Assembly: GCF_044704955.1 (NCBI RefSeq)
Contig: NC_091989.1
Span: forward strand, 9,858,001 to 9,922,000
Origin: Pristiophorus japonicus
Lineage: Eukaryota
Direction: 5' to 3'
Length of the DNA stretch: 64,000 bases
The translations under genes were made by a program, and so were the position numbers. This document shows, piece after piece, positions 3,412 to 49,446 of this stretch. Under the pieces are notes generated by a model. The model saw only the letters and a list, made by a program, of their open reading frames with translations, searched no databases and had not been told where the DNA came from. Numbering within the stretch: the stretch's first letter is position 1; each line of letters starts with the position of its first letter.

Positions 3412-3455
3412 CAAAACGTCTTCTCAGCAGCTCGAGAAATTCATTGCGGAACTCC
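3412..3455 (-). CDS. KIN: KIN17 exon 3 (44 nt)
   Basis: ttttccttccAG|EFRNEFLELLRRRF(G)|GTGAG. Confidence 0.95.
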
Positions 3456-3552
3456 CTGGAAGGAAAAGAAAACTGTATTCAATACACCACCAGGATACGG
3501 TAGCATTTGACATCAAAATGTCACAACTGCAGAGTTATAGAATAGAATTATA

Positions 3553-3889
3553 CGGGTACAACGTCTCAAATCCTGCTGTCCGAAAATCAGAATTGTCCGA
3601 AAACCGGACATTTTTGAGAAAATCCCATTTGATATTCAGTAAAACAAAATCCGGAATTATTGTCCAAAACCTGGCGGGCCGGACTAGTTATCGGCTTTGC
3701 CGCTATGTTTTAAACGATGATCGGTCCGAGCCTTGCCGAATGACCCTCGATCCGACCTGACCTACGCCACCATTAGTACTTTGTCTGTCTCGGTAGCATA
3801 CGTACACTCTTAATTTTCTTGTCCGAAATCCAGAAAAATCTGAAAATCAGCATGGTCTTGATGTTGCCGGATATGAGACGTCGTACCTG
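3553..3889. mobile_element. MITE (Tc1/mariner-pogo type), inserted in the tail of a CR1 3' fragment (3536-4165)
   Basis: TA TSD (3551-3552, 3890-3891); ~21-bp imperfect TIRs CGGGTACAACGTCTCAAATCC / GGATATGAGACGTCGTACCTG; internal TCCGAAA repeats. Confidence 0.8.
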
Positions 3890-5584
3890 TAAAAAAACGA
3901 GGCCATTCGGCCCATCGTGCCTGTGCCGGCTCTCTGAAAGAGCCACCAATTAGTCCCACCCCCATGTTCTTTCCCCAGATGTTTCTGCAAACGTTTCCTT
4001 TTATCAGTAGAGATCCAATTCCCTTTTGAAAGTTACTGTTGAATCTGCTTCCAGCAGCCTTTCAGGCAATTCATTCCAGATCATGCTGAGTAAAATAAAT
4101 TCTCATTACCCCACCCCTGGCTTTTCTTGACAATGATTTCAATTCTGGGTTCTCAAATCTCTAATAGGGTAGTTACACTACACAACTTGCACTCCTCTTG
4201 AAGTAATCTGTGCATTGAAGCAACACAGAATGAGTCCTGTAGCTGCAACACAAATGGCATTAGCTTGGCATTTTGCACAGAATCTGAGATCACCTGCAAG
4301 AAGCAGGCTCACACTGACTTATCGGCTTACAGTACAAGCTTGACCAGTGACAATGCTAGCTTTTGGAACTTTAAAAAGGAAAATTTTAAACAGCCCTGTG
4401 GACTGTCAAATTTTTGAGCATTAGCGGACAGTGCTAAACGTGGGGCAATGCTGTAAGCTCACAATGCTCTAAAAGCAGGCACTGGGGTGACATCAATAGG
4501 TGGAGTACAGAACTATTTCCTTGGTTTCCCATTCACTTATTAAAATTTGCTTCAGGCTTATGAGAAGAGTGGGATAGGGCTAGATAGATGCCTTATGTTG
4601 AGGAAAATACTAGCGCAGACTTGATGGGTTGGGTGACCTCTGTGTGCTGTAACATTCTATGTTATTATTACTACACAGAATATTACACAGAAATTAAAGC
4701 ACAGAATCAGACTATTTGGCTCAACCGGTCCATATCGTTGTTTATGCTCCACACGAGCCTCCTCCCACCCCTCTTCATCTAACTCTATCAGCATAAACTT
4801 CTATTCCTTGCTCCTTCATGGACTTAGCTAGCTTCCCCCTTAAATGCAGCTATGCTATTTGCTTCAACCACACCCTGTGGTAGTGAGTTCCACATTCAAA
4901 CCACTCTCTGAGTAAAGAAGTTTCTCCTGAATTCCTTCTTGGATTTATTAATGACCATCTTATACTTATGACCACTAGTTTTGGATTCCCAAGAGAAAAC
5001 CAGTTATTATGTTAAGAAATTTAAATAAAAATGTATACATTATTGCTATATTAAATATAGAGCACTGTTTCCAAAATGATGGCCTTGGTAATGTCGGGAA
5101 AGGTCCAATAGACTCTATTACAGAATTTAACAGCAATTGTTTAGGCAGGATTCAGACAGCAAATTGAATGATTTTTTTTAAATCATAGCTCCTTTAAAAC
5201 TAGATATATTGCAACAAAACTGTTCAAAGACAATTATCCAAAATGTGCAAAAGGGCAATATAGTCGAGTAACTGTTACTTCGATCAGAGAAGCCTATGCT
5301 TCATCCTTCTGTATACTTTATTACAACATTAAAATATATGAAAGTCACATGATAATGCAATACAGCAACTGGGACTCGCTACCACATGGAGTGGTTGAAA
5401 CAAATGGCATAGTTGCATTTAAGGGGAAGCTAGCCAAGTATATGATGGAGAAAGGAATAGAGGTTATGCTAATAGGGATAGATGAAGAGAAGTGGGAGGG
5501 AGGCTCATGTGGAGCATAAACATCAGCATGGACCAGTTGAGCCAAATGGTCTGTTTCTGTGCTGTAATTTATATGTAATATTCT

Positions 5585-8805: not shown

Positions 8806-11800
8806 GGTTTTAGTGATGTTGATGGAGGGATAAATATTGGCCAGAACATAGACAAAAGATGAATTAAAATCATTGAAATAACTTCTCGATTTTTCAATTC
8901 GACCCCTCAAGAAATAAACCATCATGCTTGGTTTGCTTTTTTTATGGCCTTATTAACCTGTGTCACTACTTTTAATGATTTGTGCATTTGTACTTCCAGA
9001 TCCCTTTGCTCTTCTACCCCATTTAGATTCTTATTTTCCAAGTAATATGCGACCTCCTTATTTTTCTTACCAAAATGTCATATGCCACATGTGTCTGTGC
9101 TAAATTCATTTGACAATTATATGCCCACTCTGCAAGTCTTCTTATAATTTGTTGCAGTCCTCCTCAGTATTGACTATCCCCCCAATTTCGTGTCATCCAG
9201 AAATTTAGGATATTCTATCCTCTTACTGCGTTTTTTGTGGGATCTTGGTTGTACAAATGGCTGCCACATGTCCCCACATAAACAAGGGCACTGCAAAGTA
9301 TTCACTGTCTGAAGTGCTTTGATGTTTTTGAGAGATACAATAAGGCATTATATAAATGCAGCCTTTAATGCTTTAATTTTCTAAGATTCAATTCTTTCTT
9401 TTAATATGGCATTCTTTTATCTAATTCAATGCATTTATCCCATGGGCCTAAACCCGGTGCTGTAATCTATTACATGAGAAAGAGTTAAACATATTAAAAT
9501 CCTGATAAACATTGGCAACTGTCTCAGCCTTACTCACAAGGTCAGCAACTTCATCAAAAAAAAGCGAAGAGATTTGTCAAACAATCCTGATGGCCATCTC
9601 CCATTAATCGATATCCCACATTCTGATACTTAACTCTCATTCACCCCAATTGTCCTTACACTTCCTGTTTCACTCAAACACTTGGGGGGAGGATTTGACT
9701 TAGGCGTGAATGTAAAACATCTGCGACCAGTTATACGTCCTACCTGATATTCAGTTCCAGTGAGCTCAATGGAACTGAATATTGGACAGGGCGTATAGCA
9801 GGCAGCAAGTGCAAAACTGCCCATTTTGCATCCCCCCCTCTATTCTAAATTCTTTCTATAGGAACATAAGAAATAGGAGCAGGAGTAGGCCATTCGGCTC
9901 TTCGAGCCTGCACCGCCATTCAATATGATCATGACTGATCATTCAACCTCAGTACCCCACCCCAGCCTTCTCTCCATACCCCCTGATCCCTTTAGCCGTA
10001 AGGGCCACATCTAACTCCCTTTTGAATATGTCCAACGAACTGGACTCAACAACTTTCTGTGGTAGAGAATTCCACAGGTTCACAACTCTCTGGGTGAAAA
10101 AGTTTCTCCTCATCTCGGTCCTAAATGGCTTACCCCTTAGCCTTAAGACTGTGTCCCTTGGTTCTGGACTTCCCCAACATCGGGAACATTCTTCCTGCAT
10201 CTAACCTGTCCAGTCTCGTCAGAATTTTATACATTTCTATGAGATCTCCTCTCATTCCTCTAAATTCCAGTGAGTATAAGCCTAGCCGATCCAGTCTTTC
10301 CTCATATGTCAGTCCTGCCATCCCCGGAATCAGTCTGGTGAACCTTCGCTGCACTCCCTCATTAGCAAGCATGTCCTTCCTCAGATTAGGAGACCAAAAC
10401 TGCACAATAGTCAAGGTGTGGTCTCACCAAGGCCCTGTACAACTGCAGCAAGACCTCCCTGCTCCTATACTCAAATCCCCTCGCTATGAAGGCCAGCATG
10501 CCATTTGCTTTCTTTACTGTCTGCTGTACCTGCATGCCTAACTTCAATGACTGATGTAGCATGACACCGAGGTCTCGTTGTACCTCCCCTTTTACTAACT
10601 GGTCACCATTCAGATAATATTCTGCCTTCCTGTTTTTGCCACCAAAGTGGATAACCTCACATTTATCCACATTATACTGCATCTGCCATGCATTTGCTCA
10701 TTCACCTAACCTGTCCAAGTCTCCCTGCAGCCTCTTAACATCCTCCTCGCAGCTCGCACAGCTTAGTGTCATCTGCAAACTTGGAGATATTACATTCAAT
10801 TCCTTCGTCTAAATCATTAATGTATATTGTAAATAGCTGGGGTCCCAGCACTGAATCCTGCGGCACCCCACTAGTCACTGCCTGCCATTCTGAAAAGGAC
10901 CCGTTTATTCCCACTCTTTGCTTCCTGTCTGCCAACCAGTTCTCTATCCACGTCAATACATTACCCCCAATACCATGTGCCTTAATTTTGCACATTAATC
11001 TCTTGTGTGGGACCTTGTCAAAAGTCTTTTGAAAGTCCAAATACACCACATCTACTGGTTCTCCCTTATCCACTCTACTAGTTACATCCTCAAAAAACTC
11101 TAGAAGATTTTTCAAACATGATTTCCCTTTCATAAATCCATGCTGACTTGGACCTAACCTGTCACTGCTTTCCAAATGCGCTGCTATTGCATCTTTAATA
11201 ACTGACCCCAGCATTTTCCCAACCATCGATGTCAGGCTAACCGGTCTATAATTCTCTGTTTTCTCTCTCCCTCCTTTTTTAAAAAGTGGGATTACATTAG
11301 CTACCCTCCAATCAAAGAAACTGATCCAGAGTCCATGGAATGTTGGAAAATGATCACCAATGCATCTACTATTTCTAGGGCCACTTCCTTAAATACTCTG
11401 GGATGCAGACTATCAGGCCCTGGGGATTTATCGGCCTTCAGTCCCTTCAATTTCCCTAATACCATTTCCCTCAGTTCCTCCTTCTCGCTAGACCCTCGGT
11501 CCTCTTGTATTTTCGGGAGGTTTTTCGTGTCTTCCTTAGTGAAGACTGAACCAAAGTATTTGTTCAATTGGTCTGCCATTTCCTTGTTATGAATTCACCT
11601 GATTCTGACTGCAAGGGACCTACATTAGTCTTCACTAATCTTTTTCTCTTCACATATCTGTAGAAGCTTTTGCAGTCAGTTTTTGTTCCCTGCAAGCTTA
11701 CTCTCATACTCTATTTTCCCCCTCCTAATTAAACCCTTGCTCCTCCTCTGCTGAATTCAGAGTCCTCAGGTTTGCTGCTTTTTCTGGCCAATTTTATGCC

Positions 11801-12071
11801 TCTTCCGTGGATTTAACACGTTCCCTCATTTCCCTTGTTAGCCATGGTTGAGCCACCTTCCTTTTTCATTTTTACGCCACACAGGGATATACAATTGTTG
11901 CAGTTCATCCATGTGATCTTTAAATGTCTGCCGTTGCCGATCCACCTTCAACCCTTTAAGTATCATTCGCCAGTCTATAATAGCCAATTCACGTCTCATA
12001 CCGTCGAAATTTCCTTTCTTTAAGTTCAGGACCCTAGTCTCTGAATTAACTGTGTTATTCTCCATCTTAAT

Positions 12072-14343
12072 ATTGGTCCCTTAGAAGATGAGAAGGGGGA
12101 TTTAATAATGGGAAATGTGGAAATGGCTGAGACCTTAAACAATTATTTTGCTTCGGTCTTCACAGTGGAAGACACAAAAACCATGCCAAAAATTGCTGGT
12201 CACAGGAATGTGGGAAAGGAGGACCTTGAGACAATCACTATCACGAGGGGGGTCGTGCTGGACAGGCTAATGGGACTCAAGGTAGACAAGTCCCCTGGTC
12301 CTGATGAAATGCATCCCAGGGTATTAAAAGAGATGGCGGAAGTTATAGCAGATGCATTCATTATAATCTACCAAAATTCTCTGTACTATGGGGAGGTACC
12401 AGCGGATTGGAAAGCAGCTAATGTAACGCCTCTGTTTAAAAAAGGGGGCAGACAAAAGGCAGGTAACTATAGGCCGGTTAGTTTAACATCTGTAGTAGGG
12501 AAAATGCTTGAAACTATCATTAAGGAAGAAATAGCGGGACATCTCGATAGGAATAGTGCAATCAAGCAGACGCAACATGGATTCATGAAGGGGAAATCAT
12601 GTTTAACTAATTTACTGGAATTCTTTGAGGATATAATGAGCATGGTGGATAGAGGTGTACCGATGGATGTGGTGTATTTAGATTTCCAAAAGACATTCGA
12701 TAAGGTGCCACACAAAAGGTTACTGCAGAAGATAAAGGTACGCGGAGTCAGAGGAAATGTATTAGCATGGATAGAGAATTGGCTGGCGAACAGAAAGCAG
12801 AGAGTCGGGATAAATGGGTCCTTTTTGGGTTGGAAATCGGTGGTTAGTGGTGTGCCACAGAGATCGGTGCTGGGACCACAACTGTTTACAATATACATAG
12901 ATGACCTGGAAGAGGGGACAGGGTGTAGTGTAACAAAATTTGCAGATGACACTAAGATTAGTGGGAAAGCAGGTTGTATAGAGGACACAGAGAGGCTGCA
13001 AAGAGATTTGGATAGGTTAAGCGAATGGGCTAAGGTTTGGCAGATGGAATACAATGTCTGAAAGTGTGAGGTCATCCACCTTGGGGAAAAAAAAGTGAAA
13101 GGGAATATTATTTGAATGGGGAGAAATTACAACATGCTGAGGTGCAGAGGGACCTGGGGGTCCTTGTGCATGAAACTCTTTTTGGAGTTTATCTGCAAAA
13201 CAAAAAACATTAAACCGTGCCACCCGAAACTCTTTTGAGTTTACCTGCAAAACATAAAGACATTAAACGGTGCCACCCGACCTGGGTGACACTCCAGACA
13301 TTTACAAGGCCCTTTTTTTTTTTTTTTTGGGCACTAGAATCACAATTTTTCCCCAGTGCCCCCTATAAAAGGGAAGGGGACACTAAAAGCACCGGCAATT
13401 AAAACAAATTAACTTTAAAACGTAAAATCAAATTAAAATTTGGTTGCCGGGCGTGATGATGCACTCCAGTCCCTCCGGTGCCCACCTCTCGCGGAAGGCC
13501 GCGAGCGTACCGGTGGACACCGCGTGCTCCATCTCCAAGGACACCCTGGACCGGATGTAAGAGCGGAAGAGAGGCAGGCAGTCAGGTTGAACGACCCCCT
13601 CGACCGCCCGCTGCCTGGACCGGCTGATGGACCGTGCCACCCGAATCCCAAAAAGTTAGTTTGCAGGTGCAGCAGGTAATCAGGAAGGCCAATGGAATGT
13701 TGGCCTTCATTGCGAGAGGGATGGAGTACAAAAGCAGGGAGGCCCTGCTGCAACTGTACAGGGTATTGGTGAAGCCGCACCTGGAGTACTGCGTGCAGTT
13801 TTGGTCACCTTACTGAAGGAAGGATATACTGGCTTTGGAGGGGGTACAGAGACGATTCACTAGGCTGATTCCAGAGATGAGGGGGTCACCTTATGATGAT
13901 TTATTGAGTAGACTGGGTCTTTACTCGTGGAGTTCAGAAGGATGAGGGGTGATCTTAAAGAAACATTTAAAATCATGAAAGGGATAGACAAGATAGAGGC
14001 AGAGAGGTTGTTTCCACTGGTAGGGGAGACTAGAACTAGGGGGCACAGCCTCAAAATATCGGGGAGCCAATTTAAAACCGAGTTGAGAAGGAATTTCTTC
14101 TCCCAGAGGGTTGTGAATCTGTGGAATTCTCTGCCCAAGGAAGCAGTTGAGGCTAGCTCATTGAATGTATTCAAGTCACAGATAGATAGATTTTTAACCA
14201 ATAAGGGAATTAAGGGTTACGGGGAGAGGGCGGGTAAGTGGAGCTGAGTCCACGGCCAGATCAGCCATGATCTTATTGAATGGCGGAGCAGGCTCGAGGG
14301 GCTAGATGGCCTACTCCTGTTCCTAATTCTTATGTTCTTATGT
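12072..14343 (+). mobile_element. CR1 LINE copy B, 5'-truncated, inserted in opposite orientation inside copy A
   Basis: RT ORF 12108-13061; 3' hairpin and TTCTTATG tail ending at 14343; copy A resumes immediately after. Confidence 0.92.
13175..13645 (-). mobile_element. Tx1/L1-clade non-LTR 3' fragment(s) nested in CR1 copy B
   Basis: ISRSRQRAVEGVVQPDCLPLFR...GNQILI* matches the C-terminus of the Tx1-like copy at 46548-47305; CR1 is split at TGCATGAA|TCCCAAAAAG. Confidence 0.85.
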
Positions 14344-15499
14344 AACTCTACCATATTATGGTCACTCTTCCCCAAGGAGCCTCACATGACTAGATTGCTA
14401 ATTGATCCTCTCTCATTACACACGACCCAGTCTTGGATGGCCTGCTCTCTCGTTGGTTCCTCGACATATTGGTCTAGAAAACCATTCCTTATACACTCCA
14501 GGAACAACTCCTCCACAGTATTGCTACCAGTTTGGTTAGCCCAATCAATATGTAGATTAAAGTCACCCATAATAACTGCTATACCCTTATTGCTTATCCC
14601 TAATTTCCTGTTTGATGCCATCCCCAACCTCACTACTACTGTTTGGTGGTCTGTACACAACTCCCACTAACGTTTTCTACCCTTTGGTGTTTCGCAGCTC
14701 TACCCATACAGATTCCACATCATCCACGCTAATGTCCTTCCTTACTATTGCGTTAATCTCCTCTTTAACCAGTAACGCTGCCCCACCTTCTTTTCCTTCC
14801 TGTCTATCCTTCCTGAATATTGAATACCCCTGGATGTTGAGTTCCCAGCCTTGGTTACCCTTTAGCCATGTCTCCGTAATCCCAATTACATCATATCCGT
14901 TAACAGCTATCTGCGCAGTCAATTCATCCACCTTATTACGAATGCTCCTCGCATTGAGACTCAGAGCCTTCAGGCTTGTTTTTTTAACACTCTTTGTCCT
15001 TTTAGAATTATGTTGTAATGTGGCCCTTTTTGATTTTTGCCCTGCTCTCCACTCTTGTTTTTCGCCTTCCTACCTTTTGCTTCTGCCCCCATTCTACTTC
15101 CCTCTGTTTCCCTGCATAGGTTCCTATCCCCCTGCCATTGTAGTTTAAACCCTCCCCAACAGCACTAGCAAACATTCCCCCTCGAACATTGGTTCCGGTC
15201 CTGCCCAGGTGCAGACCATCTGGTTTGTACTGGTCCCACCTCCCCCAGAACCGGTTCCAATGTCCCAGGAATTTGAATCCCTCCCTCTTGCACTATTCCT
15301 CAAGCCACGTATTCATCTGTGCAATAACATATCATTGACTTTATATTTATATCATTAGACTTTGTTGTTGCCATTTTGAAGTGATTTCAGCCATTTTGGA
15401 ATAACTTACTTAAAAACCTAATTGCTTGAAGTCAAGCAATAAAATCCTAGCCAAGATAAAATGTTAAACTTTTAAACACTACATCATTCTCATTTTCCC

Positions 15500-26468: not shown

Positions 26469-26600
26469 TCACCAGGCGCTTGAAGTCAATCAAAAATATC
26501 CAAAAGATCACCCAATCCATGAAAATGGTGGCTGCGGCAAAATATGCAAGAGCTGAGAGAGAGCTGAAACCAGCAAGAGTTTATGGAACAGGAGCTCTTG
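26469..26600 (+). CDS. ATP5F1C: ATP5F1C exon 3 (132 nt)
   Basis: ttttcAG|[43 protein letters not shown]|GTATGA. Confidence 0.97.
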
Positions 26601-27419
26601 GTATGATAACACTTGACAATTACACTAGTGATATAATAATTACTACTTCATTTAGAGATTGTGGGAAGGGATTTCTTGCCTAGTCACGGATACAGCATTT
26701 GTGGGCATGAACATTTAGCCTTATTTTTGTAGAAGCCTCATCTGTGCAGTGCTTTGAGGGACTGCCAGCTTAATCAATTAATTCACTTTATACTGCCTGC
26801 TGTTCTCGCCAAAACAAAGTATGGTTTGCTAATTTAATATTTGAGAAAGTTCCATTCATTTGCAAATGAATATTAGTTCTTTTTCTTAGTCAAACTTGCA
26901 AGCTGGAGATTCTGCAAATGAGCAGCTAATCGGACACTTGACTTGCAGGGGAGTTATCCCCGGTGTCCTGGCCAATACTTATCCCTCAACTAACATCACT
27001 AAAACAGATTATTTGATCATTATCACATTGTTGTTTGTGGGAGCTTGCTGTGCGCAAATAGGCTGTCGCGTCTCCTACATTACAACAGTGACTACACTCC
27101 AAAACATGTAACGCGCTTTGTGGTCATGACATTCATGATATAAATGCAAGTCTTTCTTTACGACTAAGATGCTTTTAATACATTGTGCAGCCTGCATCAT
27201 TTGGTGGTTCCACAGGATTGACTAATTTCTTTGTAGACATGTGCTGCCCATTTCAAGTAATCTTTGTGCACTTCTGTTTATGATCCATGAATGTTGCTTA
27301 ATTTTAAAATTCTATTTTTTTGCTATTTCAAAATGGAACTACAGTAGTTAAGAGAGATATCAAGTATACAAGCAGGAAATTGGTAACAATAAACTTGGAG
27401 GCATAAAGAGAGGCTACAA

Positions 27420-29470
27420 AAACAACTTGCTTTTATATAACGCCTTTAAGAAAATGTCTCGAGGTGCTTCACGGCAACAACAACATGTATTTATAAAGCG
27501 CCTTTAACGTAGTAAAACATCCCAACGCGCTTCACAGGAGTATTATAAGACAGAAAAAAATTGCCATCGACCCATATAGCGAAATTAGGGCAGGTGACCA
27601 AAAGCTTGGTCAAAGAGGTAGGTTTTAAGGAGTGTCTTGAAGGAGGAAAGAGAGTTTAGGCAGGGAGTTCCAGAGCTTGGGACCTAGATAATAGAAGGCA
27701 CGGCCACCGATGGTTGAGCGATTATAATCAGGGATGCTCAAGAGGGCAGAATTAGAGGAGCGCAATATCTTGCACTTGTGTGTGTGGCGGGGTGGGTGGG
27801 GGGGTTGGGGCTGAAGGAGATTACAGAGCTACGGAGGGGCGAGGCCATGGAGCGATTTGAAAACAAGGATAAGAATTTTGAAATCGAGGCGTTGCTTAAC
27901 TGGAAGCCAGTGTAAATCAGCGAGCATAGGGGTGATAGGTGAGCAGGACTTGGTGCGAATTAAGACATGGGCAGCCGAGTTTTGGATCACCTCAAGTTTA
28001 CATAGGGTAGAATGTGGGAGTCCAGCCAGGAGTGTGTTAGAATAGTCAAGTCTAGAGGTAACAAAGGCAAGGATGAGGGTTTCAGCAGCGGATAAGCTGA
28101 GGCAAGGGTGGCGACAGGCGATGTTAGAGGTGGAAATACGCAGTCTTAGTTATGTTGCGGATATGTGGTCGAAAGCTCATTTCAGGTTCAAATGTGACAC
28201 CAAGATTGCGAACAGTGTGGTTCAGCCTCAGACAGAAGTTGGGGAGAGAGATGGAGTTTGTGGCGGGGACCGAAAACAATGGCTTTGGTCTTCCCCATAT
28301 TTAGTTGGAGAAAATTTCTGATCATCCAGAACTGGGTGTCGGACAAGCAGTCTGACGATTTAGAGACCTTGGAGGGGTCGAGAGAAGTGGTCATGAGTGT
28401 ACATGTGGAAAGTGACGCTGTGTTTTTGGATGATGTCGCCAAGGGGCAGCATGTAGATGAAAATAGGAAGGAGCAAAGGATAGATCCTTGGGAGATACCA
28501 GAGGTAACGATGTGGGAGCGGGAAGAGAACCCATTGCAGGTGGTTCTCTGGCTGCGATTAGATAGATAAGAATGGAACCAGGCGAGTGCAGTTCCACCCA
28601 GCTGGACGATGGAGGAGAGAAGTTGAAGGATGGAGTGGTCAACCAGGTCAAAGGTTGCAGACAGGAGTGTAATCAGACAAAGTTGACATCGAGCCAAAGA
28701 AGGATTTATTTGGAGAGATGATTAAAAGCTTGGGTCAAAGAGATAGATTTTAAGGAGGGAGAGATTGAGAGGGAATTCCAGAGCTTAATGCCAAGGTGAC
28801 TGAAAGCACAGTCACCAATGATGGGATGAAGAGAGTGGGGGGATGCACGAGGCCAGAGTTGGACGAACACAGAGTTCTTTGACGGTTGTAAGGCAGGAAG
28901 AGGTTACAGACGGAAGGGCGAATCCATGGAGAGATTTGAACACGAGGTTGAGAATTCTAAAATCGGGGTGTTGGTCAGCGAGTGCAAGGGTGAAGGGTAA
29001 GTGGGACTTGGCATGAGTTAGGATACGAGCAACAGAGGTTTGGTTGAGCTCAAGTTTATGGAGGAGAGTGGAAGATTTGAAGCCAGCCAGGAAAGCATCA
29101 GAATAGTCGTGTTTGAAGGCAACAGAATCATGGATGAGGGTTTCAGCTGAGGCAGGGGCAGAGATGGGCAATATTATGGAGATGGCATTAGGCGGACTTT
29201 GTGATGGAGAGTGTATGGAATTGGAAGCTCAGCTCTGAGGGTCAAATAGGATGCTGAGGTTACAAACTGTCTCGTTAAACCTGAGACAGTGGACTGGGCG
29301 GGGATGGAATCGGTGGCAAGGGAACAAAGTTTGTGGCAGGGGCTGAAGACAATGGCTTCAGTCTTCCCACTGTTTAATTGGAGGAAATTCTAGCTTATCA
29401 AGCATGTCGGCCAAACAGTTTGATGACAAGAGTCCTTGGAGGGGCTGAGAGAGATGGTGGTGAGGTTTGT
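27420..29470 (-). mobile_element. Two adjacent L2-type LINE 3' fragments
   Basis: LSATFDLVDHSIL, GISQGSIL, FLQLNMGKTKAIVFG; tail with GGCGCTTTATAAATACA. Confidence 0.78.
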
Positions 29471-29631
29471 GTGTCTTGCTGTGTGCAAGATAGCTGTTGT
29501 GGGTTGCTTACATAGCAGGCTCTGCACTTCAAATAATTTTACCCTAAAAGGTGCTTTTAAGTGTTTTGATGGATGTGATCAGGCACTACATAAATGTAAG
29601 TTCTATTAAAGACCTTTTGCTTTTTTTAAAG

Positions 29632-29836
29632 CTCTGTATGACAAGGCAGAAATCAAAGCTCCTGAAGACCAAGCCAATCATCTGATCATTGGGGTATCCT
29701 CTGACCGTGGACTCTGTGGTGCTATCCACAGTAGCATTGCTAAGCTCATAAGAAATCAAATAAAGGAATTGACTGCTGCAGGGAAAGAGGTTAAGGTTGT
29801 AACTGTTGGTGACAAGCTGAGAGCTCTGCTGCACAG
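29632..29836 (+). CDS. ATP5F1C: ATP5F1C exon 4 (205 nt)
   Basis: tttaaAG|[37 protein letters not shown]...[10 protein letters not shown](R)|GTATGT; DRGLCG signature. Confidence 0.97.
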
Positions 29837-30559
29837 GTATGTCTTGGCTTTGAGTCTGAAAGCATATCCTTGCTTGATAACAAATGACCTTGAATGGCCC
29901 ACTCTTGGCTAAAACACTATGGCCTTGAAATGACACTGGGCGAATGCTGTGAATGCTCAGCACCATTAATTTCCTTGTCTTGCTATTTTAGTAGAGGTGT
30001 TAATCTGTCATTTTAAATGGCTTACTGTCTTTTTGTAACATAGCAGGGAGAGGTGAATATCTTAAATATTAATTATTTTCCGACAGCATAATTTAAGGGC
30101 CAGTGTTGTAACTACTTCAGCTGCTGATTTTGCTCCTGACTCTCTTTCCATTTTACGTTGGATATTGAATATATTACTCTCCTTGTAAAGTGCAAAATTC
30201 CTCATTCCAGAGTAATAGTGTCTTCAGTCTTGTTTTATCAAGAGTTTAGAGACAATTCTTCAGATTGCTTGCAAAATATGAATCTATTCATAAAAATTGA
30301 ATGGGGGAGGGTTTAAATCAGTGACAGCAATGAAGATTTATATGCAAAATCATCCCAAGTTATTATTGCATTCACTTTTGTACGGTAATATTCCAATACT
30401 GGTTTTTGCAGTACCTGTACCGTGGTTTGATAAATTGGAAGCAAAGGGGATAGGATTGCAGAAGTTGTAAAACCAAAATTCTGTGAATGTGTTGGGAAAC
30501 TATTTAGCAATTTTTCCGAACAAACAGAAGGCTGACTCTGTTTTTGCTTTAAATTGTAG

Positions 30560-30703
30560 AAACCATGGACAGCACATCCTGATGATGTTCAAGGAAGTTG
30601 GCCGGAAAGCACCAACATTTGGTGATGCTTCAATTATTGCCTCTGAGCTCCTGAACTCGGGCTTTGAGTTTGATAAAGGTTCTATTGTATTCAACAAATT
30701 TAG
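30560..30703 (+). CDS. ATP5F1C: ATP5F1C exon 5 (144 nt)
   Basis: ttgtAG|[47 protein letters not shown](R)|GTAAGT. Confidence 0.96.
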
Positions 30704-30845
30704 GTAAGTTGGTTAGAAAGAATGCATAAAATTCTATTTTAAAGTTTCTTCCATAAGACCACCTTTGATTGTCCTCCCCATCCAACTTAACCACTTGGCT
30801 GCCTTTCCTGGCCAATGTGCCTATCGACATTCTTAATGCTTTTCT

Positions 30846-33230
30846 TTAACGAGAAAGAAAGACTCTTAAGAGAAGGATGAACCACCCATGGCTAACTAAG
30901 GAAGTAAAGGATGGTATCAAATTGAAAACAAAGGCATACAATGGTACGGAGAACAGTGGAAGGCCAGAGGAGTGGGATATCTTTAGCAAAGAACGACTAA
31001 AAAAAAAAAATGATGGAGAAGATAGCTTATGAGAGTAAACTAGCAAGAAATATAAAAGCAGACAGAGCTTCTACAAGTATATAAAAAGGAAGAGGGTAGC
31101 TAAAGTAAACATTGGTTCTTTAGAGGATGAGACTGGGGAATTAATAATGGGAAACAGAAATGGCGAAGACTTTGAACAAATATTTTATATTGGTCTTCAT
31201 GGTAGAAGACACTAAAAGCATTCCAATAATGGATAATCAAGGGGCTATAAGGAGAGAGGAACTTAAAACAATCACTATCACTAAAGAAAAAGTATTCCGT
31301 AAACTAATGGGACTAAAGGTGGACAAGTCCCCTGGACCTGATAGCCTGCATCTTAGGGGCTTAAAAGAGGTGGCCGCGGAGATAGTGGATGCATTGGTTA
31401 TAATCTACCTAGATTCTGGAGAGATCCCAGCGGACTGGAAAACCGCAAATGTAACGTCTCTATTTAAGACAAGAGGGAGACAGAAAGCAGGAAACTATAA
31501 ACCAGTTAGCCTAGCATCTGTCATTAGGAAAATGCTGGAGTCCATTATTAAGGAAGTAGTAGCAGGACATTTAAAAATCATAATGCAGTCAAGCAGAGTC
31601 AACATGGTTTTATGAAAGGGAAATCGTGTTTCACAAATTTGTTCGAGTTCTTTGAGGATGTAACGAGCAGGGTGGTTAAAGGGGAATCAGTAGATGTCGT
31701 GTATTTGGATTTCCAGAAAGCATTCAATAAGATGCCACATAAAAGGTTACTGTACAAGATAGGAGCTCACAGGGTTGGAGGTAATATATTCACATGGATA
31801 GAGGATTGGCTAACTAACAGAAAGCAGAGTTGGGATAAATGGGTCATTTTCAGGTTGGCAAACTGTAACTAGTGGGGTGCCACAGGGATCAGTGCTGGGG
31901 TCTCAACTATTTACAATTTATATTAATGATTTGGATGAGTGCTGATGATACAAAGATAGGTGGGAAAGCAAGTTGTGAGGAGGACGCACAGAATCTACAA
32001 AGGGATATAGATAGGCCAAGTGAATGGAGAAAAAATTTGGCAGATGGAGTATAATGTGGGAAAATGTGAGATTATCCACTTTGGCAGGAAAAATAAAAAA
32101 TCAAATTATTATTTAAATGAGAGAGATTACAAAATGCGGTGGTATAGAGGGATCTGGGGGTACATGAAACACAAAAAGTTAGCATGCAGGTATAGCAACT
32201 AATCAGTAAGGCAAATGGAATGTTGGCCTTTATTGCAAGGGGGATGGAGTATAAAAGCAGGGAAGTCCTGTTACAATTGTACAGGGTGGTGGCAAGACCA
32301 CGCCTGGAGTATTGCGTACAGTTTTGGTCTCCTTATTTAAGGAAGGATAGACTTGCTTCATAGAAGCAGTTCATAGAAACATAGAAAATAGGTGCAGGAG
32401 TAGGCTATTCGGCCCTTCGAGCCTGCACCGCCATTCAATGAGTTCATGGCTGAACATGCAACTTCAGTACCCCATTACTGCTTTCTCACCATACCCCTTG
32501 ATCCCCCTAGTAGTAAGGACTTCATCCAACTCCTTTTTGAATATATTTAGTGAATTGGCCTCAACAACTTTCTGTGGTAGAGAATTCCACAGGTTCACCA
32601 CTCTCTGGGTGAAGAAGTTCCTCCTCATCTCGGTCCTAAATGGCTTACTCATTATCCTTAGACTGTGTCCCCTGGTTCTGGACTTCCCCAACATTGGGAA
32701 CATTCTTCCTGCATCTAACCTGTCTAACCCCGAGGTTAGAGAAGGTCAGAGAAGGTTCACGAGGTTGATTCATGAGATGAAGGGGTTGTCATATGAAGAA
32801 AGGTTGAGCAGGTTGGGCCTATACTCATTGGAATTTAGAAGAATGAGAGGTGATCTTATTGAAACATATAAGATTCTGAGGGGACTTGACAGGGTAGATG
32901 CAATGAGGATGTTTCCCCTTGTGGGGAATCTAGAACTAGGGGGCATAGTTTCAGAATAAGGGGTCGTCCATTTAAAATGGAAATGAGGAATTTCTTCTCA
33001 GGGTCGTGAATCTTTTGAATTCTCTACTTCACAGAGCTGTGGAGGCTGGGTCATTGAATGTATTTAAGGTGGAGATAGACAGATTTTTGAACGATAAGGA
33101 AGTCGAGGGTTATGGGGAGTGGGCAGGGAAGTGGATTTGAGGCCAGGATCAGATCAGCCATGATCTTATTGAATGGCGGAGCAGGCTCAAGGGGCCAAAT
33201 GGCCTACTCCTGCTCCTATTTCTTATGTTC
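30846..33230 (+). mobile_element. CR1 LINE (5'-truncated, frameshifted) in ATP5F1C intron 5, with an inverted CR1 3' fragment nested at 32372-32730
   Basis: RT fragments 31160-32202; ORF2 C-terminus at 32745-33130; tail at 33230. Confidence 0.9.
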
Positions 33231-34656
33231 TGTTTCCAAAGCACCCCTCCTTTTCAAAACCACGTTCCCATTACCCCATTCAAAAAGCCTAGATCTGTCT
33301 ATCCTCTCCCAACTGTTGCTCGATCTCCAAGGTCCATGAATGTGGCATCGGTTCTCCGCTTAGAGCCGACCTCTCCCCAATCTTCCTGTTGCAATCCCTT
33401 CAGTCTGGCTTGTGCCCTGTTCACAGCACTGAATCCATGCCGGTCAAAGTCACAAATGATATCCTCTACAATTGTGACAACAGTGCAATGTCTTTCTGTT
33501 GTGCAGCTCCACTGTGCTGCTCTTGCTCTTGCGTGATTCCATCTCAGGCTACCCAGTTCAGCCACCATATCTCCGGCAAAGGCTTCATAATCACTGCCAG
33601 AGCTCTCCAAGAACCTATCCTATTGATGACACTGTTTGCAGGCACATGGTCAGCTTTTATATGTATGCTGATGACATCCCACCTCATCGCCACATCCCTC
33701 AATCTACCAATGCGCGGCCAATCTAACATTGGAAGTGGCTGAGTGGAAAAGAAATTCCAGCTGAATGTTGGGAAGATCAGGATCATTCTTTTCAGCCCCC
33801 ACCATAAATTTTAGAGTTTCAACCTCCGATCCTATCAATCATCAAGACTGTTTATTTCCATCTCCACAGTATCATCTACATCTGACTCTTAACTGCCCTC
33901 TGAAATAGCCTAGCATGCCCCTCGGATGTACCAAACCGCTCCAGGGACTGCAACGGTTCATGGGCAATAAATGCTGGCCTTGCCGGTGACGCCCACATCC
34001 CATTATTTTTTTTTTAAACCCTGCTATGATCAACAGCTCGTGTTTTAAAAGCCTATCCTTACAATGTCTTCGGCCGAGAAATTCACCCTCTTGAAAGTTA
34101 TCAGCGTCATTGTGGGGAAACGCCGTTTAAACCAATTAGAATGTAACCCATTGCAATGTAATATTAAAAAGTAAATATATATTCTTACAGGAGTTCAGGA
34201 GGGGCAATGTGATGTTTAATGAGCGGTGTTGAATTCGCTCGAGGGAGAGGTGAAAGAGATGTGGGAATGAGTATGGTCTTAATACCTGTCATGCCCAGTC
34301 TCCGCAAAGCAATCAACAAAACAAACTGAATCCCGAATTACATTGACAGGTTATTAGAGTATTAGTCTGAGACTATCGTGTGAAGCTACATGGTGCTCTG
34401 GCCAGCATAATGTTCCTTTCTGGTTACCACAACATCCAAAACCTGGAAGTGATCGAGAAAGACCAAAATGCAAATTGTTGAAATTAGTGGATTGCTATTC
34501 GGGCAGCTGCTTCGTGGTGTTGGAGTCACATGGCATTCACCAATATTGAGCCCTGCACGTTTTGGTGATCTACACATTCAACTTGAAATTGCTTCTAAAG
34601 GTGTCTACCAGTTGCATCTTAAATGGTGCCACAAATAATTTTCTCTCTGTTTTTAG

Positions 34657-34721
34657 GTCTGTAATCTCTTACAAGGCTGAGGAGAAACCAGTCTTCTCCT
34701 TTGACGCTCTTACAAATTCCG
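34657..34721 (+). CDS. ATP5F1C: ATP5F1C exon 6 (65 nt)
   Basis: tttttAG|SVISYKAEEKPVFSFDALTNS|GTAAGT. Confidence 0.95.
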
Positions 34722-35240
34722 GTAAGTTGCTGTGTTGTCTGCAAGGCAGATAAATGAATATGGTGTTACTCAGATGCATTGATTCACCTTGTTGAGTTTT
34801 CACTTTCTCTCATTATTGCTGAATGTGATTACTAAATATAAAGTTGATATTGGTAGTGCCACCGAGTCTAAATAAATCCCCTCTGAAGAGATAGTTGTAC
34901 ATTATGCTCTAACTTAACTTTGCAAAAAATAATCATGGAATCATAGAAATTTACAGCACGGAAGGAGGCCATTTCGGCCCATCGTGTCCACACCGGCCGA
35001 CAAAGCTATCCAGCCAAATCCCACTTTCCGCAGCCATAAAATGCTCTATTTAAGAAATTGAAGGTTATATTTTAATAAAAAATGCAGAGAGCAGGATAAT
35101 GGCATAAATCTTAAACTTGTTTCAGTAGTCATATTTGCACAAAGAGTTGCAATGATCCTGTGTCAGTGCCACAAATATTATGTAACCCATCCATGTTTGT
35201 GATAACCTAGCCACTAATCATTCTTTGACTTTATTTCTAG

Positions 35241-35396
35241 AGAACATGAGTGTTTATGATGACATCGATGCTGACGTTCTGCGCAACTACCAGGAGTTTT
35301 CTCTGGTGAACATCATTTACTTCAGCTTAAAGGAATCCACCACAAGCGAGCAAAGTGCCAGGATGACTGCTATGGATAGCGCCAGCAAGAATGCTT
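35241..35396 (+). CDS. ATP5F1C: ATP5F1C exon 7 (156 nt)
   Basis: tttctAG|[51 protein letters not shown]|GTAAG. Confidence 0.97.
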
Positions 35397-35786
35397 GTAA
35401 GAAATTGTTCAGAGATTTCAGAAAAGGTGTCTTGTGCTCTAGCTTTCATAACGGTTCTCCAAATGGATGAGCTGTTACAGACCGGGAAGGGCGTCCTATT
35501 CGATTGAGTTAATGGAGCTGAGATGGAGCACCAAAATTTGCCTTGAGGCTTCTGGGTTATGGAGAGGAAATGAAATTCCTTCTGATTACTAATCAGTAAT
35601 CCTTGTATGTGGCCATTGGAGGAGGGTGGAGAGGAAGTAGGATTGACCATGATTGAATAGCCTGTTGATACTGTCACAGTGCACACATGAATAATGGCCA
35701 TTTGAGCATGGTCCTGGAGGATAGCCACTTCCAATAGATTCATATCCATCAAAAGACAATACCTTAAGAAGCGGAGCAAATTAATT

Positions 35787-36380
35787 TGGAGGGGTGGGGT
35801 GAGGGGGAGTGGGGTGGGGTGGGGGGGGAGNNNNNNNNNNNNNNNNNNNNNNNNNNNNNNNNNNNNNNNNNNNNNNNNNNNNNNNNNNNNNNNNNNNNNN
35901 NNNNNNNNNNNNNNNNNNNNNNNNNNNNNNNNNNNNNNNNNNNNNNNNNNNNNNNNNNNNNNNNNNNNNNNNNNNGAGAGAGGGAGGGTGGGGNNNNNNN
36001 NNNNNNNNNNNNNNNNNNNNNNNNNNNNNNNNNNNNNNNNNNNNNNNNNNNNNNNNNNNNNNNNNNNNNNNNNNNNNNNNNNNNNNNNNNNNNNNNNNNN
36101 NNNNNNNNNNNNNNNNNNNNNNNNNNNNNNNNGGGGGGGTGGGGTGGGGGTGGTGGTGGGGGGAGGTGGTGGAGGGGGGGAGAGGTGGTGGGGGGAGGGT
36201 GGGGTGGGTGGTGTGGTGGGATGGTGGAGAGAGGGGAGGGAGGGGGGGGGGAGGAGGGTGGGGTGGGGGGTGAGGAGGGGGGAGGGGGCTGGGTGGGGGG
36301 TGGGTTGGTGGGGGGAGTGAGGGGGAGGGGTGTTGAGGGGGGTGGGGGAGAGGGCAGGGTGGGGCGGAAGGGAGGGAGAG
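35787..36380 (+). repeat. G-rich low-complexity tract containing two N gaps (35831-35975, 35994-36132)
   Basis: Runs of GGGG separated by T/A; unresolved bases. Confidence 0.9.
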
Positions 36381-37417
36381 AGATTGAGAGATTATCATTT
36401 GGCCTTTCCTCTACATCCATATTGTTTTTGAGGAAGAAACTCCAGGTCCTAGGTTGGTTTTCCGGGATGGGATGATGGTGTTTTGGAATGGTGGGGTTGG
36501 TACAGCTCCTCAGTTGTTTCACGGCTGTGTGGATTGCTGTTTATAATCCAAATGCTGACTTTGTAGTGAGAAGGAAGATTTCATAGATACTTTAAAAAAA
36601 AAAAATTCTAAATTGTGCATTTAAAATTTGACTTGGGCCAAACCATCCACTGTTTCATCTCATCATTGGCCATCTTCTCTGCTCCCAGGGATTGATTTTT
36701 GCTGTTCAATAAAATTTTGAATTTAACATTTTGCACCCCAGATCACTTGTTTGACACAGTTTGTACAGCAGATGTTCAAAATTGTGACGAGTGGGGTTGA
36801 AACACAGGCCACATTTTTCTCTCTCCTCTTCGCCCCCCCCCCCCCCCAAATCAGTTCTGAGCAGAGAACACGTGCTTCCCATGCATATGGAGACAAATTC
36901 TGAGGGAGAGTAAAACCTCTTTTTTTTTTACCCCCTTTGCACAGCAGTTAAGTATCTCCTTCCCACATTACAACAGTGACCACACTCCAAAAGTACTTCA
37001 TTGGTTGAAAAGCGCTTTGAGACGTCCAGTGGTCGTGAAAGGTGCTATATAAATGCAAATCTCTTGTCCTGAGTTTCAGAATGGCGTTTAGCAGAGAGTT
37101 CAGGAGCAATTCATTTGATACACGTGTTGTGTCTCTATAAAACCAGGGAAGGGGAAAAAAATCCCTGACACGGATCCTCTCCTTAAGTCTCCAAAATGTC
37201 TACATAGATTAAAAACTTGAACTCGGGAATAGAATTAATGGGCAATAAATGCTGGCCTTGCCAGCGACGCCCACATCCCAGTAACGAATTTTAAAAAATG
37301 CAGAATATTATGTTTTTACTGTAAGAGCGAGCTGCTGGAGTTCCAGATGTTGGGTACAAGTAGGGCAAATATACAAGGGAAGTAAAGAAACTTAAATAAA
37401 ATTGTTATTTCTTTTAG

Positions 37418-37514
37418 CTGAAATTATTGACAAGCTGACGTTGACGTACAATCGCACTCGCCAAGCTGTCATTACCAAGGAGCTGATTGAGATTATCTCT
37501 GGTGCTGCTGCCCT
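37418..37514 (+). CDS. ATP5F1C: ATP5F1C exon 8 (97 nt)
   Basis: cttttAG|[31 protein letters not shown](L)|GTAAGT; gamma-subunit C-terminal signature. Confidence 0.97.
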
Positions 37515-47545: not shown

Positions 47546-48326
47546 TCTTATGTTTGGATAAATTAACAATGGTTGTTGGATCTTTTAAGAGGACAAAATG
47601 TCCCAGAAGCAATAGCAGCTGAAATAAAAACTGGAAATGCTGGAAACACTCATTGGGTCAGGCAGCATCTGTGGAGAGAAAGACTTAATGTTTCAGGTCG
47701 ATTGACATTTCATCAGAACTGGAAGATGTTAAGAGACGAACAGCTTTTAAGCAAGTGCAGAGCCAGGGTAAAGGGGCGGGGCAGGAGTGATTAAATGACA
47801 GAAGTAATGGTGCACTGCAAAACGATGTGATGATGAAACAAGTATAGGCAGCTGAATAGCAAAGGCAAGTGAAACATGGAAAATCTGGCAAAGAAGGTTT
47901 GTGGTAGTTCAGGAATATGATAGAATAAAGGCAGGTAGACTACAGTGGTGCGGACCACCCCACCAACGGTACGGATAGGGAATTCCCCACAAGTACTAGC
48001 CCACACCTCCACTCCCAGTGACTCTGGTGCAGCCACCCTCCATTACCAGTGTGAGCGGCCTGATAGAAAATGGGAGTGCGGGTTAAGGTCTAAAATTGTT
48101 AAACATAACATTAATTCCTGAAGGCTGTAAATTGCCTAAGAGAAAGTTGAGGGGCTATTCCTCCAGCCTGTATTGAAACAGTGTAGGGCGAAGGACAGAG
48201 AGGTCAAAGTGGGAGTGGGATGGAGAATTAAAGTGGCAAGCGACTGGAAGCTCGGTCACAATTGCAGATTGAACAAGGATGTTAACAAAGTGATCACACA
48301 GTCTACATTTGGTCTCCCTAATATAG

Positions 48327-48903
48327 AACATAGAAACATAGAAAATAGGTGCAGGAGTAGGCCATTCGGCCCTTCGAGCCTGCACCGCCATTCAACAAGG
48401 TCATGGCTGATCACCCACCCCAGCACCGCCTCCCCACGCCCCCCCCGCCCCCCCCCCCAGCCGCAAGGACCACATCCAACTCACTCCCAAACACATCCAA
48501 TGAACTGGCATCAACAACTCTCCGTGGCAGGGAACCCCACAGGCCAACAACTCCCCGAGTGAATAAGTCTCTCCCAATCCCAGCCCCAAACAGCCCACCT
48601 CCCATCCCAAGAGCGTGCCCCCCACCCCCCGGCTCCGGACCCACCCAACACCGGGAACACGCCCCCCGTTCCCAACCCGCCCCGTCCTGTCAGAATCCTT
48701 CCGAAATGCCGAACACCCCCGGATGTCGAGCCCCCAGCCCCGGCCACCCCGGAGCCACGCCCGTGCGACGCCAACCACACCACATCCACCAACCACTATC
48801 TGCGCAGTCAACCCGTCAACCCCACTCTGAACACTCCCCGCACCGAGGCACAGAGCCCCCAGGCCCGCCCCTCCAACACACTCCCCCCCCCCCCAGACCT
48901 CCG
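48327..48903 (-). mobile_element. Internally deleted CR1 retrocopy with A-to-G hypermutation
   Basis: Nearly intact 3' tail at 48327-48410; 3' ORF2 segment 48410-48697 and EN segment 48695-48903 show massive T>C (+ strand) relative to CR1 copies at 9900-10230 and 14807-15010. Confidence 0.88.
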
Positions 48904-49446
48904 TTTGAACTGGTGCTCTCTCCACTCTCTCTCCTGTGACAGTGGGAACTGGTGCTCTCCACTCTCCCATCCTGTAACAGTTTGAACTGGTGCTCTCTGC
49001 ACTCTCCCATCCTGTGACAGTGGAAACTGGTGCTCTCCACTCTCCCATCCTGTGACAGTGGGAACTGGTGCTCTCCACTCTCCCATCCTGTAACAGTTTG
49101 AACTGGTGCTCTCTGCACTCTCCCATCCTGTGACAGTGGAAACTGGTGCTCTCCACTCTCCCGTCCTGTGACAGTTTGAACTGGTGCTCTCTGCACTCTC
49201 CCATCCTGTGACAGTGGGAACTGGTGCTCTCTCCACTCTCCCGTCCTGTGACAGTGGGAACTGATGCTCTCCACTCTCCCGTCCTGTGACAGTTTGAACT
49301 GGTGCTCTCTCCACTCTCTCTCCTGTGACAGTTTGAACTGGTGCTCTCTCCACTCTCTCTCCTGTGACAGTTTGAACTGGTGCTCTCTCCACTCTCTCTC
49401 CTGTGACAGTTTGAACTGGTGTTCTCTCCACTCTCTCTCCTGTGAC
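48904..49446 (+). repeat. 37-39-bp minisatellite, ~14 copies
   Basis: Unit TTTGAACTGGTGCTCTCTCCACTCTC(T/C)(C/A)TCCTGTGACAG. Confidence 0.95.

What the first reader, a model, noticed from the sequence alone, without database searches (positions are those of the whole stretch)
48410..48903. Genomic fossil of an A-to-I hyperedited LINE RNA (ADAR-like A>G hypermutation)
Seen: this C-rich stretch aligns by eye with unedited CR1 copies in the same window, but with one-directional T>C changes on the + strand, i.e. A>G on the element's sense strand. Over 48695-48903 versus 14807-15010 I count roughly 45-50 T>C among ~70 T's, and only 1-2 C>T. The endonuclease peptide LKALSLNARSIRNKVDELTAQIAVNGYDVIGITETWLKGNQGWELNIQGYSIFRKD becomes LGALCLGAGSVQSGVDGLTAQIVVGGCGVVGVARAWLRGGRGWGLDIRGCSAFRKD (K/N/E>G, I>V, Y>C, T>A). 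Many surviving T's sit in TC/TG context (sense A preceded by G or C). The last ~85 nt (3' hairpin and tail, 48327-48410) are almost untouched. Known: ADARs deaminate most A's in long dsRNA and disfavour a 5' G, inosine is reverse-transcribed as G, and CR1 RT is thought to need its own 3' tail. Ordinary decay and APOBEC editing give C>T / G>A instead. Inference: a hyperedited transcript was retrotransposed in the germline, recording RNA editing in DNA and hinting at ADAR acting on shark LINEs.
Basis: partly seen in the sequence, partly recalled or inferred. Interest (0 to 1): 0.88.

Follow-up and report, generated by a model that had tools for sequence, protein, structure and literature searches.

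The report
Jumping-gene family born from RNA editing
More than 900 copies (likely about 2,000) of a parasitic DNA element in this vertebrate genome share the same roughly 145 one-stranded A-to-G changes, which the RNA-editing enzyme ADAR likely made once on a jumping-gene RNA that was then copied into the germ line and multiplied, so a burst of RNA editing likely founded a whole mobile-element family.

Summary
Against its closest parent CR1-type LINE, the window copy has 108 A>G changes and 2 T>C. It belongs to a family with 914 exact junction matches (about 2,300 copies estimated) that shares one editing pattern: 144 A>G against 18 other changes. Editing falls with the 5' neighbour, U 30/30, A 55/70, C 29/44, G 30/67, as expected for ADAR; 3' G is not enriched. 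The element resembles SVA in layout: a 37/38-nt VNTR, a 159-nt unedited spacer, an edited endonuclease fragment, a 2.4-kb deletion, an edited 3' end and an unedited terminal 59 nt with tail. Five further, differently edited single LINE insertions show that edited RNA is written back repeatedly. Short-read contigs carry the edited letters. Best reading: one ADAR-hyperedited LINE RNA landed behind a VNTR and became a non-autonomous family mobilised in trans. The enzyme, the duplex partner and the source locus are inferred. This scan found scattered ADAR-like fossils in other genomes before; none of those shown was described as an amplified family. Ten literature searches found no such family.

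The parts
48323..48345 (-). CR1-type 8-nt microsatellite tail, 3' end of the element
   Evidence: sequence; 29 of 30 junction-ascertained copies have it
48337..48395 (-). unedited terminal 59 nt of the parent LINE (likely RT recognition region)
   Evidence: 0 of 11 A edited in the family majority; role inferred
48396..48694 (-). hyper-A>G 3' part of the parent LINE (end of ORF2 region and 3' UTR), segment B
   Evidence: 58 A>G, 2 T>C in the window copy's segment B versus parent majority
48694..48695 (-). junction of an internal deletion of about 2.36 kb, 2-3 nt microhomology
   Evidence: 914 exact genomic matches to a junction 22-mer, control 0
48695..48903 (-). hyper-A>G fragment of the ORF2 endonuclease N-terminus, segment A (333 nt in most family members, 209 nt here)
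   Evidence: 50 A>G, 0 T>C; the unedited counterpart gives a weak Exo_endo_phos hit below cut-off, the edited one none
48903..49446 (-). 37/38-nt VNTR, 14 units, 5' part of the element; joined directly to segment A by a second deletion of about 280 nt shared with three other copies
   Evidence: TRF; same VNTR upstream in 17 of 30 junction-ascertained copies; window-type junction in 4 loci
   Evidence: 89.5% to parent reference
9865..12072 (-). unedited parent-type LINE copy, downstream piece, contiguous in LINE coordinates with 14344-15325
   Evidence: 89.8% to parent reference, positions 1830-4085 versus 833-1826

Best explanation
The window copy is one member of a non-autonomous, VNTR-headed retrotransposon family whose LINE-derived body carries about 145 shared sense-strand A-to-G changes, likely made in one burst by ADAR on a double-stranded LINE RNA, then likely reverse-transcribed into the germ line and likely amplified in trans by the parent CR1-type LINE through its unedited 3' end. 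Steps: (1) shown: shared A>G pattern, strand bias, 5' neighbour order, architecture, copy number, variable 5' truncation, common tail. (2) Inferred: a LINE transcript paired with an inverted or antisense copy and was deaminated at about two thirds of its A. (3) Inferred: the RT read inosine as G; the product, 5'-truncated and lacking 2.36 kb, came to lie downstream of an unedited spacer and VNTR. Whether the deletion came before or after editing is open. (4) Inferred: transcription entering through the VNTR made composite RNAs that ORF2p copied about 2,300 times; some copies became sources themselves. (5) Shown: the write-back also happened in at least five other single insertions with different patterns.
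For: Family majority (29 copies) versus closest parent majority (20 copies for segment A, 16 for B): A>G 144, all others 18, T>C 0; 144 of 211 A edited; 5' U 30/30, A 55/70, C 29/44, G 30/67. No TA dinucleotide survives in the edited span, 4 survive in the 159-nt spacer. None of 59 copies has more than 8 edited sites back at A. Counts: junction 914, 3' probe 922, spacer 691, controls 0; detection rates 12 of 30 and 23 of 60 give about 2,300-2,400 copies. Independent insertions L174 (97 A>G/6 T>C), L178 (90/2), L182 (57/3), L183 (52/1), L197 (332/20 over 3.3 kb), same 5' order when pooled with L175, P=4e-23; five ordinary copies show 5-28 A>G with 11-34 G>A. Mirror-strand probe 0, unedited probe 27,629. 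Four exact short-read contigs span 6-15 edits each of L197. Secondary sources: window-type deletion in 4 loci; L036/L037 share 2,189 nt including about 1.25 kb upstream of the VNTR but not their 3' flanks. Upstream G depletion is the published ADAR mark (PMC4365171, PMC2873906).
Against: No 3' G enrichment in the family (P=0.53). A after G is still edited 45% of the time. No duplex partner was identified: the parent has no long internal inverted repeat, and the source locus and true 5' end were not found. No RNA evidence: all runs laid were contigs of uncertain type. Human L1 RNA showed no editing by ADAR1 in culture (PMC5224506). Edited G return to A more often than ancestral G (151/6677 versus 150/10878 outside CpG), one edited site is A in 37% of copies, and residual A gain G more often than T gain C (107/7537 versus 71/13358), so a few changes may be later or mosaic. 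The mirror control (0 versus 4-5) is weak on its own. Clear target-site duplications were not found.
Confidence: 0.85

Rival explanations
1. The A>G burst was made by the LINE reverse transcriptase itself, misreading A under a biased nucleotide pool (low dTTP) or on a modified template, with no deaminase involved; later amplification as above.
For: Also strand-specific, clustered and tied to reverse transcription; would not predict 3' G enrichment, which is absent in the family. Pool-bias hypermutagenesis by retroviral RTs is recalled, not checked here.
Against: 68% substitution with almost no other errors or indels; a graded 5' neighbour order repeated in both segments and in independent insertions; local on/off stretches, such as L197 about 15% edited in its last 800 nt and 27-55% upstream.
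Confidence: 0.07
2. The changes accumulated gradually over many retrotransposition cycles of one source lineage (mild editing each round or a biased mutation process), not in one burst.
For: A few polymorphic edited sites and extra A>G at residual A; copies with parent-like states at several diagnostic sites (L185, L194) and a possibly re-edited copy (L175).
Against: Only 18 non-A>G differences separate family from parent; none of 59 copies has more than 8 edited sites back at A; all 11 hits of a probe for an unedited junction were fully edited members; single insertions show that one round can give 50-330 edits. GC-biased conversion would be strand-symmetric, but T>C is 0 of 135.
Confidence: 0.05
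3. A deaminase other than ADAR, or ADAR acting on the DNA strand of the RNA:DNA hybrid, made the changes.
For: ADARs can edit DNA in hybrids in vitro (PMC12925331); 3' G preference is missing.
Against: Editing of first-strand cDNA would appear as T>C on the sense strand, which is 0 with the mirror probe empty. APOBEC gives G>A (PMC4866542). The reverse direction is excluded because the A-rich form is the 27,629-match form with the open RT and endonuclease frames.
Confidence: 0.02
4. Sequencing or polishing artefact.
For: G-rich, homopolymer-rich sequence; the window's own insertion was not bridged in the contigs laid.
Against: More than 900 copies on both strands with one shared pattern; independent short-read contigs hold the family form and the edits of L197.
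Confidence: 0.01

Closest known systems
ADAR-type A>G hypermutation fixed in retroviral DNA (Rous-associated virus, avian leukosis virus, BLV; PMC12925331 and PMC8025556, passages read)
   Same: Dense sense-strand A>G recorded in DNA after reverse transcription; about half of the A changed in the avian cases.
   Different: Somatic or cultured viruses, short LTR regions, no inherited multicopy family. Here it is a germline LINE, 0.7-3.3 kb edited, and one product amplified about 2,000-fold.
APOBEC DNA-editing fossils in endogenous retroelements (PMC4866542, PMC2873906, passages read)
   Same: Clustered, unidirectional, strand-biased changes relative to a progenitor, fixed in vertebrate genomes.
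   Different: G>A made on cDNA, chiefly in LTR elements; here A>G made on the RNA strand of a LINE.
SVA composite retrotransposons (PMC3287187, passages read)
   Same: Non-autonomous, composite, VNTR of similar unit length (36-42 nt there, 37/38 here), similar copy number (about 2,700 there), 5' truncation, transduction-like 5' extension, LINE-mobilised (inferred here).
   Different: No hexamer head, Alu-like part, SINE-R or poly(A); the 3' end is the LINE's own tail; no homology tested or expected; the body is hyperedited.
Bipartite non-autonomous LINEs and LINE-derived SINE bodies (Kojima 2018, PMC5786205, passages read)
   Same: Internal deletion joining an upstream LINE piece to the LINE 3' end.
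   Different: ORF-less bipartite forms were reported there only for RTE, Ingi, Vingi and R2 and usually keep the LINE 5' end. This one is CR1-type, keeps an internal ORF1/ORF2-boundary piece, has a VNTR head, no tRNA head, and is edited.
Hyper-edited RNA in inverted repeats (Porath et al., PMC4365171, passages read)
   Same: Most A edited in repeats; G depleted upstream.
   Different: Seen in RNA only; downstream G enrichment is present there and absent in this family.

Membership tests
ADAR hyper-editing product | A>G dominates on one (the transcribed) strand | tested here: met
   144 A>G, 0 T>C, 18 others in all; five singletons 52-332 A>G versus 1-20 T>C
ADAR hyper-editing product | G depleted 5' of edited A | tested here: met
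   30/67 after G versus 114/144 otherwise, P=1.2e-6; six other loci pooled P=4e-23. The full U>A>C>G order as the ADAR preference is recalled.
ADAR hyper-editing product | G enriched 3' of edited A | tested here: inconclusive
   not met in the family, P=0.53; weakly met in six pooled loci, P=0.016
ADAR hyper-editing product | Long double-stranded RNA substrate | tested here: inconclusive
   no long internal inverted repeat in the parent; partners are abundant in principle (27,629 probe matches; 7 of 29 family copies sit next to antisense parent sequence), but the founder's partner was not found
ADAR hyper-editing product | Dependence on ADAR enzyme; inosine in RNA | not testable with these tools
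   needs RNA or genetics
CR1-clade LINE (parent) | ORF2 with RT nearest to CR1 RTs; ORF1 with esterase domain; 8-nt microsatellite tail | tested here: met
   RVT_1 E=1.7e-30 and Lipase_GDSL_2 E=2.8e-13; relatives from elasmobranchs, birds and turtles; tail in sequence. That these features mark CR1 is recalled; no clade tree was built.
Non-autonomous LINE-mobilised element | Shared 3' end with a LINE, variable 5' truncation, dispersed copies, no intact ORF2 | tested here: met
   2.36-kb deletion removes most of ORF2
Non-autonomous LINE-mobilised element | Target-site duplications | tested here: inconclusive
   best shared word 0-7 nt in 11 copies versus 4-5 nt in controls
SVA | Hexamer head, Alu-like region, SINE-R, poly(A) tail | tested here: not met
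   anatomy versus PMC3287187; works like SVA, is not SVA
tRNA- or small-RNA-headed SINE | Pol III small-RNA head | tested here: not met
   no tRNA in 4 loci, no Rfam hit in 3 loci; the true 5' end is unknown, so a distant head is not excluded
APOBEC-edited retroelement | G>A on the sense strand | tested here: not met
   4 G>A versus 144 A>G

The most novel reading that the evidence does not exclude
One ADAR-hyperedited RNA molecule founded a successful retrotransposon family of about 2,000 copies: RNA editing rewrote two thirds of the adenosines of a LINE fragment in a single generation, and the product, fused to a VNTR, became an SVA-like element outside primates, shared by two organism labels and seeding tandem arrays of up to 80 kb. 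Editing may have helped rather than stopped it, by removing most editable A and weakening pairing with the many parent copies.
Probability: 0.65. Interest if true: 0.9.

Novelty: new variant of a known kind. Interest (0 to 1): 0.82.

Why it matters
[quoted passage not shown] This genome gives a countable natural case: rare hyperedited insertions (4 clearly independent hits against 27,629 unedited matches of the same probe) and one that became a family. It shows RNA editing acting as a heritable mutagen at genome scale, raising G from 212 to 359 and CpG from 13 to 40 in about 700 nt and creating 4 G-quadruplex motifs where the parent has none. It also makes two questions testable: which 3' bases the CR1 RT needs (compare singletons edited near the end with the family's intact end), and whether editing restricts or promotes mobilisation. 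Such families would look unrelated to their parents in ordinary repeat annotation.

Tried and rejected
Single-fossil reading: rejected. Unedited deletion precursor: 0 of 11 probe hits; a single diverged copy could be missed. Edited undeleted precursor: the one hit in the deleted region, L197, has a different pattern (59 of 94 A unedited or discordant in segment B; 44 of 120 discordant in segment A). Local inverted copy as the cause in singletons: L197 and L182 lie inside antisense LINE copies, but 7 of 29 family copies do too, the host copies are at 94-95% and 87-89% identity to the parent, and editing in L197 extends beyond the overlap. Source locus and 5' end: upstream flanks of 22 fetched copies plus the window were compared; no shared head was found except the L036/L037 pair. 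The two giant arrays were considered as sources; L187's flanks form one contiguous target, which favours expansion after insertion. Origin of the 159-nt spacer: no non-family match in loaded loci, 30 of 30 motif hits were family members. tRNA and Rfam heads: none. Run X10 (organism C) covers the tail but not the edited body; a hole proves nothing. Folding of the last 118 nt gave different structures for parent and family majority and was not informative. Literature searches returned nothing on such a family. Repbase and Dfam could not be searched, and no supplements were read, so the family may be catalogued without its origin being noted.

Full report
Observation. The C-rich stretch is real and homologous to LINE copies in the window. 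Over 48695-48903 versus 14807-15015 there are 52 T>C among 73 aligned T and 2 C>T, and both quoted peptides are correct. Nine homologous window copies gave 59-84 T>C against 3-13 C>T. The two reference pieces at 14344-15325 and 9865-12072 are contiguous in LINE coordinates and look like one interrupted copy.

It is a family. A search of the own genome (5.9 Gb) with 48325-48905 scored 40 of 3,332 candidates; the 39 non-self hits cover the whole query at 92-93%. The 29 fetched share the same changed positions and lie 1.5-4.3% from their majority (chosen for likeness to the window, so biased low). Thirty copies picked by the junction motif are 88-97% identical including gaps. Exact probes gave 914 (junction), 922 (3' part) and 691 (spacer) matches with reversed controls at 0. 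The junction probe was intact in 12 of 30 spacer-picked copies and the 3' probe in 23 of 60 sampled loci (the two samples overlap in part), which implies about 2,300-2,400 copies, roughly 1,500-4,000 (my arithmetic).

Anatomy, on the element's sense strand (window minus). A 37/38-nt VNTR; a 159-nt unedited spacer; 333 nt from the ORF1/ORF2 boundary and endonuclease start; a deletion of about 2.36 kb with 2-3 nt microhomology; the last 358 nt of the LINE; the 8-nt tail. Copies end at the tail (29 of 30) and are 5'-truncated at variable points; 17 of 30 reach the VNTR. The window copy lacks the spacer and the first part of segment A; three other loci share that second junction with different flanks, so a deleted copy itself served as a source. 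L036 and L037 share 2,189 nt at 96.8%, including about 1.25 kb upstream of the VNTR, but not their 3' flanks, which resembles 5' transduction. No common 5' head, tRNA or Rfam family was found. The parent has an RT domain and a GDSL-esterase ORF1; its top named RT relatives by identity are elasmobranch (72-86%), with bird and turtle proteins near 50%. That this marks CR1 is recalled.

Spectrum and context. Against its majority (20 copies for segment A, 16 for B) the family majority has 144 A>G and 18 other changes: 0 T>C, 4 G>A, 4 C>T, 10 transversions. In the edited span 144 of 211 A are G; in the last 59 nt 0 of 11. By 5' neighbour: U 30/30, A 55/70, C 29/44, G 30/67 (G versus rest P=1.2e-6), with the same ranking in both segments. 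By 3' neighbour there is no G preference (50/70 versus 94/141, P=0.53). The window copy alone gives 108 A>G, 2 T>C and U 24/25, A 35/43, C 23/32, G 26/50 (P=2e-4). Upstream G depletion and downstream G enrichment are the published ADAR marks (PMC4365171; PMC2873906); only the first is met in the family.

One burst or many steps. None of 59 copies has more than 8 edited sites back at A. A probe with the parental A next to the junction gave 11 hits, all edited members. Against a perfectly clean single founder: edited G return to A at 2.3% versus 1.4% for ancestral G outside CpG; among 104 distinct copies one edited site is A in 37%, and residual A gain G at 107/7537 versus T>C 71/13358. G-run misalignment, subfamily structure, conversion by parent copies or slight re-editing could each explain this; it is unresolved.

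The process recurs. A probe forcing five TA>TG changes plus a parent-type base gave 16 hits: 11 family members, one ambiguous short copy (L175, 31 A>G, 1 T>C, edited to 22 nt from the end) and four undeleted LINE ends with parent-type diagnostics. These are L174 (97 A>G, 6 T>C), L178 (90, 2), L182 (57, 3) and L183 (52, 1). A probe in the deleted region found L197, 3,283 nt with 332 A>G and 20 T>C. Their patterns differ from the family and from each other (for example L178 versus family 34 of 94 sites discordant). Pooled over these six loci, 5' neighbours are U 180/294, A 221/449, C 96/320, G 118/542, and 3' G is weakly enriched (P=0.016). Five ordinary copies show 5-28 A>G with 11-34 G>A. The unedited form of the probe has 27,629 matches and a mirror probe for sense T>C has 0. 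These loci were ascertained by edited TA sites, which inflates the U class slightly.

Independent sequence data. Contigs of runs X1 and X5 (organism A, two studies) and X7 (organism B) carry the edited form; one X7 contig of 268 nt spans the junction with 12 differences. The likeness filter excludes unedited copies by design, so this shows presence only. Four low-depth contigs match L197 exactly across 7, 15, 10 and 6 edited sites. The window's own insertion was not bridged, and no expression could be shown.

Mechanism. Shown: pattern, architecture, copy number, recurrence. Inferred: ADAR on a LINE RNA paired with an inverted or antisense copy; inosine read as G by the RT; landing behind spacer and VNTR, since the spacer keeps 4 TA sites and the edited span none; mobilisation in trans through the intact 3' end. 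The sense-strand direction points to the RNA and not the first-strand cDNA. L178 shows that one insertion tolerates edits up to 22 nt from the end, so the family's intact end is better read as a condition for amplification than for insertion; this is untested. Confidence in the whole account is 0.85; RT misincorporation (0.07) and gradual accumulation (0.05) are the main rivals.

Comparison. A>G hypermutation in retroviral DNA is known (PMC12925331, PMC8025556), as are APOBEC fossils (PMC4866542), SVA (PMC3287187) and bipartite LINEs, reported as ORF-less forms only for RTE, Ingi, Vingi and R2 (PMC5786205). Human L1 RNA was not found edited (PMC5224506), and a review lists ADAR's role in Alu subfamily evolution as undetermined (PMC4982230). 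All nine papers were seen as keyword passages only, with no supplements. Ten searches found no retrotransposon family derived from a hyperedited RNA; most subscription papers, Repbase and Dfam were out of reach. This scan's notes list eight similar scattered fossils in other genomes (unchecked); look-ups for an amplified family or this sequence returned nothing.

Verdict. Observation confirmed; interpretation right in mechanism, incomplete in scale. New variant of a known kind; interest 0.82.

Noticed in passing
G000:C7:about 46,347,000-46,428,159 (L176, L240, L248-L250, L254-L259, L272): One family copy carries a VNTR array of about 81 kb (read whole to 46.385 Mb, then sampled at six points, far end read); a 4-nt word recurs at both flanks. 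Suggests a retroposon-seeded satellite.
   Followed up: partly
G000:C4:about 158,337,300-158,367,240 (L187, L241, L251-L253): A second copy has a VNTR array of about 30 kb; its two flanks match one contiguous stretch of another repeat, favouring expansion after insertion.
   Followed up: partly
L036:250-2436 and L037:318-2451: Two copies share about 1.25 kb of sequence upstream of a 1-2 unit VNTR but have different 3' flanks: likely 5' transduction from a secondary source.
   Followed up: partly
3' flanks of L090-L119: 10 of 29 family copies have parent-type LINE sequence directly 3' (7 antisense, 3 sense, one of these with both), against about 20% window coverage by related LINEs; possible preference for inserting into LINEs.
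   Followed up: partly
L228:648-5882: The 3.3-kb hyperedited copy L197 sits inside an oppositely oriented LINE copy of the same subfamily (94-95% identical to the parent); its last 800 nt are only about 15% edited, the rest 27-55%.
   Followed up: partly
window 26500-37500: Exons of an ATP synthase gamma-type gene on the + strand (Pfam ATP-synt E=1.1e-8 for 35216-35386, below cut-off); the element lies about 11 kb past the last coding exon found.
   Followed up: partly
window 12073-14343: About 2.3 kb of other, oppositely oriented LINE pieces interrupt the parent-type copy 9865-15325.
   Followed up: no
window 35790-36390: G-rich low-complexity stretch around the N runs; aligns only spuriously with the edited element.
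   Followed up: partly
L125, L126, L128, L131, L136, L137 and L124, L127, L129, L132, L138 (G000:C1, first 3 Mb): Near-identical parent LINE copies cluster near the start of C1, suggesting segmental or tandem duplications.
   Followed up: no
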